Source: Candidatus Hermodarchaeota archaeon
GTDB taxonomy: Archaea; Asgardarchaeota; Heimdallarchaeia; Hodarchaeales; Hodarchaeaceae
Reading direction: 5' to 3'
Assembly: GCA_048886185.1 (NCBI GenBank)
Contig: JBHLKY010000017.1
Coordinates: forward strand, 30,001 to 62,000
DNA length: 32,000 nt
Shown: piece after piece, positions 1-2,846 of the stretch
Numbering within the stretch: the stretch's first letter is position 1
Layout of the letters: every line of letters begins with the position of its first letter
Notes under the pieces: generated by a model
Seen by the model: only the letters and a program-made list of their open reading frames with translations
Databases searched by the model: none
What the model was told of the DNA's origin: nothing
Made by a program: the position numbers and the translations under genes

Positions 1-48
1 CTCACATCCGATACATTTTTCAATGAATATTTGTGCTGTCAATTTCAC
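1..48 (-). CDS. HgcB-like 4Fe-4S ferredoxin, 5' fragment (runs off the left edge; not in ORF track)
   Basis: Reverse complement of 48..1 reads GTG AAA TTG ACA GCA CAA ATA TTC ATT GAA AAA TGT ATC GGA TGT GAG = (M)KLTAQIFIEKCIGCE. EKCIGC is the start of a CxxCxxCxxxC ferredoxin motif. It starts 12 nt after the stop of the hgcA-like gene, with GAGGA at 55..51; the alternative start is TTG at 42. Confidence 0.75.
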   Translation of the reverse strand, partial: MKLTAQIFIEKCIGCE

Positions 49-60
49 TTTCCTCTAAAA

Positions 61-1722
61 TTATAATAACATGTTAATTGCCGAACTCACCACTGGCAGT
101 AGTAAGGCAATCACCGCAAGAACTAACGCAGGGATTGAGAACAATACGAGGTCACTTTCCACATCAAGATGATTGGTGAATGGAGTACTACCTGCAAAAT
201 CCAAAACGACAAACATACTTACAAGTAATACCAAAGCTATCCAAAAAAGAACTGTACCAATATTATTTCCTTGATTAATGACATAGATAAAAACCAAAAC
301 TGCGTTTATTCCGCCTAAAAGAATTCCTTTCTTGAAAAACGACCTTACTGGATTCAAAATAGGATAAATCCATGCAAATAACATAGATACAGTACAACCG
401 ATAATTGTCATCTGGATCATAACATTAAACCAAAATAAAGCACCAATAATTCTTAAATATCCCAGGAAACCTGTTAAGAAGCATAAAGGAAGAAAAACGA
501 CGATTAGTATGAAAAAAGTATGTTGTATCCCCATTAAGGTCCTATAGGAAAAATCAAACTTCACTTTTCCTTGATTTTGTGTTTTATTACCGTCCCTGAT
601 AAAATCATCTATAGAATCAATATAAACTGGACCGAATTTCGGTTTCCATCCAAAATCTTTGAGTTTCTGGTGATCAACACCTGTTGCAGAGAGTTGGGGG
701 AGTATCAAATTTCTATGATTTACTACTAACTCTGCATTAAACAGACGTAATGCATCAATAACTTGAGAATGGCTAAAATGTCCACCCCCAGCAGCACACC
801 AGACATTAATGCCTGCAGAATCAATAACTAACAAGTAACAATCAATTTTTTGCTTGATTAGAGAGGAATAAACAGAATGGAGCGTCCAATAATAATTACC
901 AGTAACAAGAAAAGGTGATGTTTGTTTGGGTGTTCCTACTTTATAAAGTCCAGGTGGGACTTGTTTGCGTGTTAACAATCCATTTAAAATACACCAAGCA
1001 ACCTTTATTCGACTAACTCGGCCCAGAACAGAGTTTATTGGAGTAAAACTCACCCTCTTGGAATCAAGAGTCTCTTTCAATCTACATTGATAAAATTGGA
1101 CTGATTTCTTTAAACCCTTGTACAAGAGTTCGCATGAATAATAATCACTTAAAAGAACCTCAAAATTTCTGATTGGGGTTGTTGTTGCACTACTTCTTAA
1201 TAACATTATCTGGGAATTAATGGCCTGTTTCATTGAATATACAAATCGCTTAAATAATGAAGTGGGGATGGTTTCAGCTGCGATAAGCAAGCTTCCTGTT
1301 GTTTTTAGCAACTGACTGGTCTGTTTTATGAATAGTTCTTGTTGAAGGGGACTAAATTCCGAAAGAACAAATGTTGAAACTATAAAGTCAAACGGTCCTA
1401 GATTTTTCAGGTTATCAAATATTTGAAAATCGATAAAACTTCCTTGTATGAAATTAATGCTAACTTGTTCCTTTTCAGCAGATTTACGAGCATGATTAAT
1501 CATTTCTACTGAAATGTCCACAGCTACTACATCAAGGTCTTGTTCTGCTAATTGGATGGCTAGCTGGCCTGTGCCACACCCAATCTCTAAAATTCGGCCA
1601 ACCTTCCCGACTTTTTTTCTGATTATTTCATAAATCGAAGATGATTCAGGAAAAAGCTTATGAAACTCCTCATCATATTTATCAGGTTCCTTTTCTAGGA
1701 TTTTCATGTAAATAAGACTCAT
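61..1722 (-). CDS. Fusion: class I SAM-dependent methyltransferase + HgcA-like (CdhD/AcsD-related) corrinoid domain + HgcA-type transmembrane domain
   Basis: N-terminal ~215 aa: motif I RILEIGCGTG, motif II VVAVDIS, FDFIVSTFVLSE. Middle: VPPGLYKVG-P---SPFLVTGNY, YLLVIDSAGINVWCAAGGGHF, LILPQLSATGV, FGPV, all hallmarks of the HgcA corrinoid domain. C-terminal ~165 aa: several hydrophobic helices with DFAGSTPFTNHLDV, matching the HgcA NFTGS(T/S)xxTSxSGV motif. The symbol is withheld because the canonical GK of the cap helix is GG. Confidence 0.9.
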   Translation of the reverse strand: MSLIYMKILEKEPDKYDEEFHKLFPESSSIYEIIRKKVGKVGRILEIGCGTGQLAIQLAEQDLDVVAVDISVEMINHARKSAEKEQVSINFIQGSFIDFQIFDNLKNLGPFDFIVSTFVLSEFSPLQQELFIKQTSQLLKTTGSLLIAAETIPTSLFKRFVYSMKQAINSQIMLLRSSATTTPIRNFEVLLSDYYSCELLYKGLKKSVQFYQCRLKETLDSKRVSFTPINSVLGRVSRIKVAWCILNGLLTRKQVPPGLYKVGTPKQTSPFLVTGNYYWTLHSVYSSLIKQKIDCYLLVIDSAGINVWCAAGGGHFSHSQVIDALRLFNAELVVNHRNLILPQLSATGVDHQKLKDFGWKPKFGPVYIDSIDDFIRDGNKTQNQGKVKFDFSYRTLMGIQHTFFILIVVFLPLCFLTGFLGYLRIIGALFWFNVMIQMTIIGCTVSMLFAWIYPILNPVRSFFKKGILLGGINAVLVFIYVINQGNNIGTVLFWIALVLLVSMFVVLDFAGSTPFTNHLDVESDLVLFSIPALVLAVIALLLPVVSSAINMLL

Positions 1723-1761
1723 TGTTGATCAAAACCCGTAATAGGGAAATTTAGTTTCATC

Positions 1762-1768
1762 TTATATA
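1762..1768 (-). promoter_or_regulatory. Candidate TATA box for the methyltransferase-hgcA-like gene
   Basis: Minus strand reads ...CCAGAGATATATAAG...: TATATAA about 40 nt upstream of the ATG at 1722, preceded by a purine-rich BRE-like stretch. Positional inference only. Confidence 0.35.
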
Positions 1769-1859
1769 TCTCTGGATTGTGGTGCAGCACAATATTTCCG
1801 AACATTGATATGAGATAATGGATTCAATACATTTGATTAACTTTTGGAGTTAACAGCGA

Positions 1860-2846
1860 ATGAAGGTGAAGTGTCAAGCCTACTGCAGCAAATGTTACCA
1901 TGAAAAAGGGAGGACACAAGAATATGATCCCAACGATTTAATCTGGTTCTGTTCGAGTTGTAAGAAGAATTTTTTATGTGAGATTGGTGTTACAAAAGGT
2001 TTTCAGGCAGGTACCACAGTCTACTCGTGCACAATTTGCAGTAGACCCTTAATTAAAGAAGAAGTTGATAAATCTATAATAACAAAAAAATCTGTTCCTA
2101 GCCAACAAAAAAAGACGAGGGATCTATATCAAAAGCTTTTGGTATCAGAAAATAAGTTCAAAACAAGGAAATGGTGGCAGAAGTCTAATACTCAAATAAT
2201 TCCTTTACCTCGTTTAGAACAGTCACAAATCAGTGAATTATGTGATATTGATGGGTTAACAGTCCCTCTTCTAATAGAATTCGCGCATGAATTCCATATC
2301 AAGAATTTTAAAGCTTATGATAAAATTAAGACAGTTCAAGAGCTTCTATCTAGGTTGGCAAAAGAGGATCAGACAATTACTTCAACCTTATACTCAGCTT
2401 TAGTTCAAAGAGACTCGATACCACTTGCTTTTAAATTACGATTTGCAGTTTTTTGTAACTCTCAATTCAAGGAAAAAAGACGAATAATTTTACCTCATAA
2501 TTCAATTGATTATGAAGGATATGATATGAAACTAGTTGAACCTTCAATGAAGGAAACATGGATATTTTGCTTGGAAGAGGACATAGATATAGACAATTTG
2601 GAGAGATTAGCAAAAAGAGTTTTTAATGTTGATTTTAAGAATTTTCCAAAGCTAAAAGAGATTTTTCTTGTTGCAAAATCATTTTCTTATCTTGCAAAGG
2701 GATTGTTAGCTAAATATCAATCTGTTTTCACAGGTGTTGACACTCCTCCTGATGAAAGCACTACTGGATTGTGGCGATCAATTCCTCTCTCATTATGGCA
2801 ACCTAAACATTGTAAGAACGATTTTGAAAATGTTTCACTTAAATGA
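1860..2846 (+). CDS. Hypothetical protein with N-terminal Cys-rich Zn-binding domain
   Basis: 8 Cys + 1 His in the first 60 aa (C5, C9xxC12, H14, C31xxC34, C40, C57xxC60). The remainder is soluble alpha/beta and not confidently assigned. Confidence 0.7.
   Translation: MKVKCQAYCSKCYHEKGRTQEYDPNDLIWFCSSCKKNFLCEIGVTKGFQAGTTVYSCTICSRPLIKEEVDKSIITKKSVPSQQKKTRDLYQKLLVSENKFKTRKWWQKSNTQIIPLPRLEQSQISELCDIDGLTVPLLIEFAHEFHIKNFKAYDKIKTVQELLSRLAKEDQTITSTLYSALVQRDSIPLAFKLRFAVFCNSQFKEKRRIILPHNSIDYEGYDMKLVEPSMKETWIFCLEEDIDIDNLERLAKRVFNVDFKNFPKLKEIFLVAKSFSYLAKGLLAKYQSVFTGVDTPPDESTTGLWRSIPLSLWQPKHCKNDFENVSLK

What the first reader, a model, noticed from the sequence alone, without database searches (positions are those of the whole stretch)
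61..1722. SAM methyltransferase fused to a full HgcA-like corrinoid membrane protein: a one-polypeptide methyl relay
Seen: three domains in one ORF, namely a class I SAM MTase (GCGTG), an HgcA-type cobalamin domain with the Cys-bearing cap helix, and an HgcA-type TM domain including the FxGSTPFT motif. Established: HgcA with the ferredoxin HgcB methylates Hg(II) via a Cys-ligated corrinoid; canonical HgcA has no MTase domain, and SAM has been reported as the methyl donor for HgcAB in vitro. From memory (unverified), the N-terminus MSxxxMKILExxPxxYD resembles the family labelled corrinoid protein-associated methyltransferase (CpaM), whose function is unknown. Inference: this is a self-contained SAM -> Co(I) -> acceptor methylation machine in a probable Asgard archaeon. 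It could be an atypical mercury methylase or, more likely, an HgcA paralog that methylates another metal(loid), thiol or membrane-bound substrate, and so may inform what the ancestral HgcA did.
Basis: partly seen in the sequence, partly recalled or inferred. Interest (0 to 1): 0.92.

Follow-up and report, generated by a model that had tools for sequence, protein, structure and literature searches.

The report
SAM methyltransferase fused to HgcA-like protein
An Asgard-type archaeon encodes a membrane vitamin-B12 protein related to the mercury-methylating enzyme HgcA, fused to its own SAM methyltransferase and followed by an HgcB-like iron-sulfur partner. It is a real and widespread but untested cousin of the mercury methylase, and its target is unknown.

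Summary
Window 61..1722(-) is one 553-aa ORF with three parts: a CpaM-type class I SAM methyltransferase, an HgcA-type corrinoid domain with the Cys cap helix (GINVWCAAGGGHF), and a five-helix HgcA-type membrane domain (GSTPFT).

It is not self-contained. An HgcB-like 2x[4Fe-4S] ferredoxin starts 12 nt downstream and is cut by the window edge.

It is not an assembly artefact. More than 100 protein clusters share the architecture, and independent contigs bridge the domain junction.

It is not canonical HgcA:
- It scores below the NCBIfam cut-offs for HgcA, HgcAB-like and CpaM.
- It lacks the diagnostic Lys (NVWCAAGK) and 12 other canonical-specific residues.
- It falls in its own strongly supported clade outside the canonical HgcA clade, and well apart from CdhE.

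The three modules occur in every fusion pattern. This genome also carries an unfused copy of the system.

The best reading is a ferredoxin-activated SAM -> Co -> acceptor relay whose acceptor is unknown. Mercury is unlikely but not excluded.

The kind is already catalogued (NCBIfam CpaM / HgcAB-like), and this scan has noted it 27 times on other DNA.

The parts
61..1722 (-). Whole 553-aa ORF: CpaM-type methyltransferase, linker, HgcA-like corrinoid domain and 5-TM domain
1147..1722 (-). CpaM-type class I SAM methyltransferase domain (residues 1-192). It includes the N-terminal MKILE..P..YD helix, motif I GCGTG (1567..1581), D69 and invariant E122.
   Evidence: NF043040 140.5 bits, against about 51 bits for the next methyltransferase family. 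Invariant columns M6 L9 E10 G48 G50 E122 across 92 fusions. Motif read.
964..1146 (-). End of the methyltransferase fold (beta hairpin 195-215) and the two-helix linker (residues 193-253) to the corrinoid domain
   Evidence: Secondary structure of the AF2 model. Contigs bridge this stretch without any indel.
589..963 (-). HgcA/CFeSP-type corrinoid-binding domain (residues 254-378)
   Evidence: Pfam CdhD 254-366. PDB CFeSP large subunit 4djd_C aligns at 256-376. The top Foldseek hit is the HgcAB model 9a0b_A at 32% identity.
775..813 (-). Cap-helix motif GINVWCAAGGGHF. Cys309 (796..798) is the predicted axial Co ligand. Gly313 replaces the Lys that is invariant in canonical HgcA.
88..552 (-). 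HgcA-type membrane domain with five predicted TM helices (residues 391-545). It carries family-invariant R394 and G511 within GSTPFT (175..192).
1..48 (-). First 16 codons (GTG start at 46..48, GAGG 5 nt upstream) of an 89-aa HgcB-like 2x[4Fe-4S] ferredoxin. The rest lies beyond the window edge (G000:C17:29779-30000).
   Evidence: Best NCBIfam match is HgcB NF040864 at 69 bits (cut-off 99). It has CIECGAC, GCGC and a C-terminal Cys.

Best explanation
The gene and the ferredoxin gene behind it form a two-gene cassette. This cassette is a fused-form variant of the CpaM / HgcA-like / HgcB-like system, a sister of the mercury methylase HgcAB.

Proposed mechanism (all steps inferred, none shown):
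1. The HgcB-like di-cluster ferredoxin reduces the corrinoid bound to the HgcA-like domain to Co(I). Cys309 of the cap helix is the axial ligand.
2. The fused CpaM domain binds SAM and methylates Co(I), giving CH3-Co(III).
3. The methyl group passes to an acceptor held at the membrane domain and/or the Cys-rich tail of the ferredoxin.

The acceptor is unknown. A soft, thiol-binding species such as a metal(loid) is the most economical guess. Hg(II) is unlikely but not excluded.

Shown here: domain identities, gene order, conservation, phylogenetic placement and the Rosetta-stone pattern.
For: 1. All three modules are found in every arrangement:
- CpaM~HgcA-like plus a separate Fd (types A and B; this gene is type B).
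- CpaM, HgcA-like and Fd as separate genes (type C; also in this genome at C4).
- CpaM plus an HgcA~HgcB fusion (type D; L010 scores 438 bits on NF043039).
- All three fused in one protein (P0108, P0164, P0168).

2. In 41 genomes of the same class, every HgcA-like hit is fused to a CpaM-like hit or has one on the same strand of the same contig. Most are adjacent; in G005 three plus-strand ORFs lie between them. The exceptions are one CdhE-type hit and a few short or weak fragment hits.

3. Methyltransferase domains from all non-canonical lineages hit CpaM best (122-278 bits, next family 90 bits or less). They form the same strongly supported clades as their corrinoid partners.

4. SAM-binding G48, G50 and D69, the cap-helix N306, W308 and C309, and R394 and G511 are invariant or nearly so across 92 fusions.

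5. AF2 gives pTM 0.90 for the whole three-domain chain, which implies a fixed packing of the methyltransferase against the rest.

6. In 9 of 9 clade-B loci an 87-92 aa ferredoxin follows 11-45 nt downstream. It has HgcB's CIECGAC, a GCGC after cluster 2 and a C-terminal Cys or CC. These parallel HgcB Cys73 and Cys94/95, which PMC11588087 cites as important for methylation.

7. Purified canonical HgcAB uses SAM to form methylcob(III)alamin with Co-thiolate ligation (PMC11588087). SAM -> Co chemistry therefore has a precedent in this family.

8. No other methyl-donor module (pterin-binding or MtaA-like) is conserved beside the cassette.
Against: - There is no biochemical evidence for any CpaM or HgcA-like paralogue.
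- No class I Rossmann methyltransferase is known to methylate a corrinoid (my own knowledge).
- Canonical HgcAB uses SAM without any CpaM, so CpaM may do something else.
- The model coordinates could not be inspected, so I do not know whether the SAM pocket faces the Co site.
- The acceptor is not hinted at by gene context: none of the 9 clade-B loci has ars, mer or other conserved neighbours.
- The genome shows no CobS or CbiC, so the cofactor would have to be salvaged.
Confidence: 0.6

Rival explanations
1. It is a genuine, atypical mercury methylase: the CpaM domain loads the corrinoid from SAM and the methyl goes to Hg(II).
For: - It keeps the Cys-bearing cap helix, the HgcA-type TM domain with GSTPFT, and an HgcB-like partner with CIECGAC plus extra Cys residues in HgcB-like positions.
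- Its best structural match is the HgcAB model 9a0b_A.
- HgcAB itself uses SAM (PMC11588087).
Against: - It fails the Hg-MATE high-stringency motif: NVWCAAGG rather than NVWCAAGK (PMC10087281).
- It scores 189 bits against a 275-bit cut-off for NF040863.
- It lies outside the 100/100 canonical clade.
- It lacks 13 residues that are at least 90% conserved in canonical HgcA, including K313 and T510.
- All organisms with non-canonical 'fused HgcAB' tested so far make no MeHg (PMC10087281, PMC10083202). None of those was a clade-B protein.
Confidence: 0.12
2. The CpaM domain is only a repair module, like the AdoMet (reactivation) domain of methionine synthase. Together with the ferredoxin it re-methylates oxidised Co(II), while the routine methyl donor is a different, unidentified compound.
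For: - The trio of reductant, SAM-binding module and corrinoid domain parallels MetH reductive reactivation (flavodoxin plus AdoMet), which is established biochemistry.
- The ferredoxin is always present.
Against: - No second methyl-donor-binding protein is conserved next to the cassette in any of 9 clade-B loci or in the type A, C and D loci examined.
- In canonical HgcAB, SAM is the turnover donor (PMC11588087).
Confidence: 0.12
3. The methyltransferase domain methylates the final substrate (or a product) directly from SAM. The corrinoid/membrane part does a different job, such as demethylation, substrate delivery or a second methylation step.
For: - The methyltransferase fold is a generic small-molecule class I type. 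Its nearest structures are C-, O- and N-methyltransferases of small molecules and lipids, and TehB.
- Canonical HgcAB needs no CpaM to use SAM (PMC11588087).
Against: - The partnership with HgcA-like proteins is obligatory, and fusion has recurred in at least four separate strongly supported clades. This argues for direct hand-over between the two domains.
- CpaM-specific invariant residues (M6, L9, E10, E122) are conserved across lineages whose corrinoid domains differ widely.
Confidence: 0.08
4. The fusion is an assembly or gene-calling artefact, or a decaying gene.
For: None found.
Against: - The frame is open for 553 codons.
- More than 100 clusters at 90% identity from independent assemblies share the architecture and length.
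- Contigs from other samples and another study cover the junction without indels.
- The AF2 model has mean pLDDT 93.8.
Confidence: 0.01

Closest known systems
CpaM + HgcAB-like fusion protein system (NCBIfam NF043040 + NF043039; the 'fused HgcAB' clade of Podar 2015, Gilmour 2018 and Lin 2023)
   Same: It has the same three modules: a CpaM-type SAM methyltransferase, an HgcA-like corrinoid plus TM protein with a Cys cap helix lacking the Lys, and a di-cluster ferredoxin. CpaM is by far the best methyltransferase match. The function of this system is also unknown.
   Different: - The fusion point is shifted: here CpaM is fused to the HgcA-like part and the ferredoxin is a separate gene.
- All three parts score below the curated cut-offs (140/180, 209/285, 69/99 bits).
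- The protein forms its own clade (B), outside the 100/97 clade that holds the HgcAB-like fusions.
- The ferredoxin keeps an HgcB-like Cys tail.
HgcA/HgcB mercury methylase (NF040863/NF040864; P. mercurii ND132)
   Same: - Corrinoid domain with the NVWC cap helix.
- Five-helix membrane domain with GSTPFT.
- Downstream ferredoxin with CIECGAC and extra Cys residues.
- SAM as the likely methyl source (shown for HgcAB in PMC11588087).
   Different: - It has an N-terminal 250-residue methyltransferase plus linker that HgcA lacks.
- Gly replaces the invariant Lys after CAAG, and 12 other canonical-specific residues differ.
- It lies outside the canonical clade and scores below the cut-off.
- Mercury methylation is untested.
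Corrinoid iron-sulfur protein large subunit (CdhE/AcsC, PF03599; PDB 4djd_C, 2h9a_A)
   Same: The corrinoid-binding domain is homologous (residues 256-376, E 1e-7).
   Different: - It has no N-terminal [4Fe-4S] domain or TIM barrel, and no CdhD partner.
- It is membrane-anchored.
- Its axial ligand is predicted to be Cys.
- It separates from CdhE at 100/99 in the tree.
- This genome has no CdhE at all.
Methionine synthase reactivation module (AdoMet domain plus flavodoxin)
   Same: The logic matches: a low-potential reductant plus SAM converts an inactive corrinoid to CH3-Co(III).
   Different: The SAM-binding fold is unrelated (class I Rossmann here). The analogy is one of function only, and it is drawn from knowledge rather than tested.

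Membership tests
HgcA, mercury methylation corrinoid protein (NF040863; Hg-MATE criteria) | Cap-helix motif N(V/I)WC(A/S)(A/G/S)GK with the conserved Cys | tested here: not met
   The motif is NVWCAAGG. Cys is present but Lys is replaced by Gly313. Lys is 100% conserved in 51 canonical representatives. The motif list comes from PMC10087281.
HgcA, mercury methylation corrinoid protein (NF040863; Hg-MATE criteria) | Score at or above the curated cut-off (275 bits) | tested here: not met
   189.2 bits. The control canonical protein P0177 scores 395.5 bits.
HgcA, mercury methylation corrinoid protein (NF040863; Hg-MATE criteria) | Placement inside the canonical HgcA clade | tested here: not met
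   The canonical clade has 100/100 support. The window protein is in a separate 100/99 clade.
HgcA, mercury methylation corrinoid protein (NF040863; Hg-MATE criteria) | Corrinoid domain plus C-terminal multi-helix membrane domain | tested here: met
HgcA, mercury methylation corrinoid protein (NF040863; Hg-MATE criteria) | Methylates Hg(II) | not testable with these tools
   This needs a MeHg assay.
HgcAB-like fusion protein (NF043039) | Score at or above 285 bits, with the ferredoxin domain fused at the C-terminus | tested here: not met
   208.9 bits, covering only profile positions 15-280 of 350. The ferredoxin is a separate gene.
HgcAB-like fusion protein (NF043039) | Partnered with a CpaM methyltransferase | tested here: met
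   The CpaM-type domain is fused at the N-terminus.
CpaM, corrinoid protein-associated methyltransferase (NF043040) | Score at or above 180 bits | tested here: not met
   140.5 bits over profile positions 1-192 of 216. The next methyltransferase family scores about 51 bits.
CpaM, corrinoid protein-associated methyltransferase (NF043040) | Class I SAM-binding motifs, and physical association with an HgcA-like corrinoid protein | tested here: met
   GCGTG, D69 and the invariant N-terminal M-x-x-L-E. It is fused to the corrinoid protein.
CpaM, corrinoid protein-associated methyltransferase (NF043040) | Transfers methyl from SAM to the corrinoid | not testable with these tools
   The family is itself a 'hypothetical equivalog'; no assay exists.
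CdhD/CdhE corrinoid iron-sulfur protein (PF03599, NF003195) | Groups with CdhE and has the Fe-S and TIM-barrel parts | tested here: not met
   It separates from five CdhE outgroups at 100/99. Only the last 112 of 387 Pfam positions match. NF003195 scores 72.6 bits against a 306-bit cut-off.
HgcB ferredoxin (NF040864), for the downstream gene | Score at or above 99 bits | tested here: not met
   69.1 bits, although this is the best of all families.
HgcB ferredoxin (NF040864), for the downstream gene | Two CxxCxxCxxxC motifs including C(M/I)ECGA, plus additional Cys after cluster 2 and at the C-terminus | tested here: met
   It has CIGCEWCVNVCP, CIECGACTLQCP, GCGC and a terminal Cys. These are conserved in 5 of 5 clade-B and 2 of 2 type-A partners.

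The most novel reading that the evidence does not exclude
The CpaM domain is a new kind of corrinoid methyltransferase: a class I Rossmann enzyme that loads Co(I) from SAM. Its partnership with HgcA-type proteins predates the split of the family. On this reading the mercury methylase HgcAB descends from a CpaM-coupled ancestor and lost the domain, and its 'unexpected' use of SAM is inherited.

The 111-row tree places CpaM-fused lineages as the sister (95/91) and next sister of canonical HgcA. A reduced data set, however, collapses the backbone, and the AU test does not reject a single non-canonical clade (p 0.17).
Probability: 0.3. Interest if true: 0.75.

Novelty: new variant of a known kind. 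Interest (0 to 1): 0.45.

Why it matters
HgcAB is the only known route to methylmercury, yet its native function and the way SAM reaches its cobalamin are open questions. A large sister group carries a dedicated SAM methyltransferase that is fused, adjacent or triply fused. That is independent genomic support for SAM as the family's methyl source. It also offers a tractable system, with two genes and no other partners, for studying SAM -> Co -> acceptor chemistry and for finding out what HgcA-type proteins do when they do not methylate mercury.

There is a practical point too. Some CpaM-fused relatives carry the NVWCAAGK motif that surveys use to call 'true' hgcA, so motif-only calls may include them.

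For this particular locus the value is confirmatory rather than new.

Tried and rejected
- **Complex prediction.** Complex prediction on the methyltransferase domain (1-200) against the HgcA-like part (240-553), with SAM riding along, gave no verdict (0.30 against a mark of 0.32). I do not use it as evidence either way.
- **AU test on the full tree.** The AU test on the full 111-row tree did not finish in two runs. I reran it on 57 rows.
- **'Canonical HgcA nested within a CpaM-coupled grade'.** The large tree suggested this, but it is not robust (AU p 0.17), so I keep it only as the novel case.
- **Radical SAM link.** A radical SAM gene abuts the orthologue in a congener (L016). Its 61%-identical orthologue in this genome lies on another contig (C5), and no other clade-B locus has one. 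I rejected it as a conserved partner.
- **Arsenic or mercury context.** None was found in 9 clade-B loci.
- **Expression.** No RNA holder was listed, so nothing can be said about expression.
- **Literature.** The search for 'CpaM' or 'corrinoid protein-associated methyltransferase' found no paper. The likely source (J Bacteriol 205:e00259-22, PMC9879109) is not held.
- **Model geometry.** Model coordinates are not returned, so the distance from the SAM pocket to the Co site could not be measured.
Full report
**Observation.** Window 61..1722 on the minus strand is a single 553-codon open frame.
- Pfam finds a class I methyltransferase domain (Methyltransf_25, residues 44-143, E 1.2e-17). It also finds the C-terminal corrinoid part of PF03599 CdhD (residues 254-366, E 1.4e-15).
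- NCBIfam names the parts more precisely. CpaM, 'corrinoid protein-associated methyltransferase' (NF043040), covers residues 2-192 at 140.5 bits. HgcAB-like fusion protein (NF043039) covers 254-517 at 208.9 bits. HgcA (NF040863) covers 253-547 at 189.2 bits.
- All three scores are far beyond chance, but all are below the curated cut-offs (180, 285 and 275 bits).
- An AlphaFold2 model built on 92 homologous fusions has mean pLDDT 93.8 and pTM 0.90, with five TM helices between residues 391 and 545.
- Its best PDB match is the deposited integrative model of HgcAB (9a0b_A, 32% identity over 333 columns). The N-terminal domain matches ordinary small-molecule class I methyltransferases.

**Not an artefact.**
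- Of the 120 best near-length homologues, 117 carry both domain types at 520-590 aa. They come from NCBI, JGI, ENA and Logan assemblies.
- A separately assembled 11-kb contig from another sample of the same study covers window 1-2000 with four substitutions and no indel or joint.
- A contig from a different study covers 1018-1336. This overlaps most of the domain junction (about 964-1146), although 964-1017 had no cover in that run.

**Surroundings.**
- The window starts at G000:C17:30001. Twelve nucleotides after the TAA of the fusion gene, behind a GAGG, a GTG opens an 89-aa ferredoxin gene. Only 48 nt of it lie in the window.
- The ferredoxin has two CxxCxxCxxxCP motifs, the second being CIECGAC. 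Its best NCBIfam match is HgcB (69 bits, cut-off 99).
- In all nine clade-B loci examined, an 87-92 aa ferredoxin follows 11-45 nt downstream, and nothing else is conserved. There are no ars or mer genes.
- These ferredoxins, and those of the related type A, share a GCGC (GCRC in one) right after the second cluster and a C-terminal Cys or CC. This echoes the HgcB cysteines (C73, C94, C95) cited as important for methylation in PMC11588087.
- The machine is therefore a two-gene cassette, not one polypeptide.

**A Rosetta stone in four arrangements.** The same genome carries a second, unfused system on contig C4: CpaM-like (217 aa), HgcA-like (327 aa, cap GVNVWCSAAGGHF) and a 72-aa ferredoxin. 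A search of 41 genomes of the same class gave these results.
- No hit reaches the HgcA cut-off.
- Every HgcA-like hit is fused to a CpaM-like hit or has one on the same strand of the same contig. Most are adjacent; in G005 three plus-strand ORFs lie between them. The exceptions are one CdhE-type hit and a few short or weak fragment hits.
- Four architectures recur:
  - Type A: fused, CpaM above cut-off, cap AARGDKF.
  - Type B: this gene, cap AAGG[GK]HF.
  - Type C: three separate genes.
  - Type D: CpaM above cut-off plus the catalogued HgcA~HgcB fusion (L010, 438 bits).
- Triple fusions also exist (P0108, P0164, P0168).
- Single genomes hold up to two of these paralogous systems.
- Methyltransferase domains from nine of ten proteins sampled across the non-canonical lineages hit CpaM first (122-278 bits, next family 90 bits or less). 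P0138 has a different N-terminus.
- In a separate tree these domains fall into the same strongly supported groups as their corrinoid partners.
- This is strong genomic evidence that the three modules act together.

**Phylogeny.** I built a careful IQ-TREE (LG+C20+F+G4 PMSF) of 106 HgcA-family corrinoid+TM regions with five Asgard CdhE outgroups. The 106 regions were thinned from the 150 best representatives of a 1.84-billion-protein search plus the fusions and the loci above.
- The family separates from CdhE at 100/99.
- Canonical HgcA (NVWCAAGKGTF; P0177 passes NF040863 at 395 bits) forms a 100/100 clade.
- The window protein sits in a separate 100/99 clade of fusions only.
- The HgcAB-like fusions form another clade (100/97). 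That clade also holds bacterial CpaM fusions and triple fusions.
- In this tree, CpaM-fused lineages are the sister (95/91) and next sister of canonical HgcA.
- A 57-row reanalysis collapses the backbone. The AU test does not reject a tree in which all non-canonical lineages form one clade (p 0.17). The order of events is therefore open.
- Column by column, the window protein keeps every family-wide invariant residue: G258, G263, P265, N276, G304, N306, V307, W308, C309, A311, F316, P342-L344, A346, G364, P365, F389, R394 and G511.
- It differs at 13 positions that are at least 90% conserved within canonical HgcA, including K313G and T510A.
- It also fails the Hg-MATE high-stringency motif list (PMC10087281).

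**Mechanism.** The most economical reading has three steps.
1. The ferredoxin reduces the Cys-ligated corrinoid to Co(I).
2. The fused CpaM domain transfers the methyl group of SAM to Co.
3. CH3-Co(III) passes the methyl to an acceptor at the membrane domain or the ferredoxin's thiol tail.

- Support comes from the obligatory partnership and the conservation of SAM-binding and cap-helix residues across 92 fusions.
- The confident fixed packing of the domains (pTM 0.90) adds to this, as does the absence of any other conserved donor module.
- The precedent is that purified HgcAB forms methylcob(III)alamin from SAM with Co-thiolate ligation (PMC11588087).
- None of the chemical steps is shown for this protein.
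- Rivals are a true mercury methylase, a MetH-like repair role for CpaM, and direct substrate methylation by the methyltransferase domain. They are listed with their tests.

**Organism and distribution.**
- The nearest homologues (47-61% identity) are named Hod-, Hermod-, Heimdall- and Promethearchaeota. An Arf-family GTPase is the next gene.
- The runs that hold the sequence are sediment metagenomes.
- The fusion architecture also occurs in Thorarchaeota, Anaerolineae/Chloroflexota, Poribacteria, Desulfobacteraceae, Nitrospiria and others.
- The genome (96% complete) has no CdhE, so these proteins are not part of a Wood-Ljungdahl pathway.

**What is known.**
- NCBI curators already model CpaM and the HgcAB-like fusion as a pair.
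- The 'fused HgcAB' clade, including Asgard members, is discussed in PMC10083202 and PMC10087281. Those papers note that tested organisms do not make MeHg.
- None of the papers I could search mentions the methyltransferase partner or this fusion.
- This scan has noted the same kind of system 27 times in at least 23 other genomes.

**Verdict.** This is a sound observation of a fused-form, below-cut-off variant of a catalogued but uncharacterised system. Its interest is moderate.

Noticed in passing
G000:C4:111503-113451 (locus L002 752..2700, + strand): This is a second, unfused copy of the system in the same genome: a CpaM-like methyltransferase (217 aa, 134 bits), an HgcA-like protein (327 aa, cap GVNVWCSAAGGHF) and a 72-aa ferredoxin. 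That ferredoxin lacks the GCGC and C-terminal Cys of the type A and B partners.
   Followed up: partly
P0065, P0071, P0099, P0109 (proteins): These 529-aa CpaM-fused proteins carry the cap-helix motif NVWCAAGK, which Hg-MATE uses as its high-stringency mark of true HgcA. P0065 has CpaM at 230 bits (over the cut-off) but HgcA at 232 bits (below 275). It is 63% identical to P0055, the sister of the canonical clade. Motif-only hgcA calls may include such fusions.
   Followed up: partly
L016 4684..5826(-) (G001:C5) and G000:C5:133962-135095: A 380-aa radical SAM gene ends exactly where the orthologous fusion gene starts in a congeneric genome. Its 61%-identical orthologue in this genome is on another contig. 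Other radical SAM genes, one with a B12-binding domain, lie near the type A and D loci (L014, L010).
   Followed up: partly
whole genome G000: No CobS or CbiC match was found in a 96%-complete genome, yet nine B12-binding (PF02310) domains score above the cut-off. The organism probably salvages corrinoids rather than making them.
   Followed up: partly
L001 255..1202(+) = G000:C17:28818-29765, just left of the window: This is a 315-aa protein with an Arf-family small GTPase domain (E 6.5e-37) and a C-terminal extension of about 140 residues with no Pfam match. It converges on the ferredoxin gene. Such GTPases are typical of Asgard genomes.
   Followed up: no
window 1860..2846(+): A 328-aa protein is divergently transcribed from the fusion gene. 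It is Cys-rich at the N-terminus (several CxxC pairs) and has no Pfam family at E <= 0.001.
   Followed up: no
P0108, P0164, P0168 (582-589 aa): These single polypeptides carry all three modules: CpaM, HgcA-like and a C-terminal di-cluster ferredoxin.
   Followed up: partly
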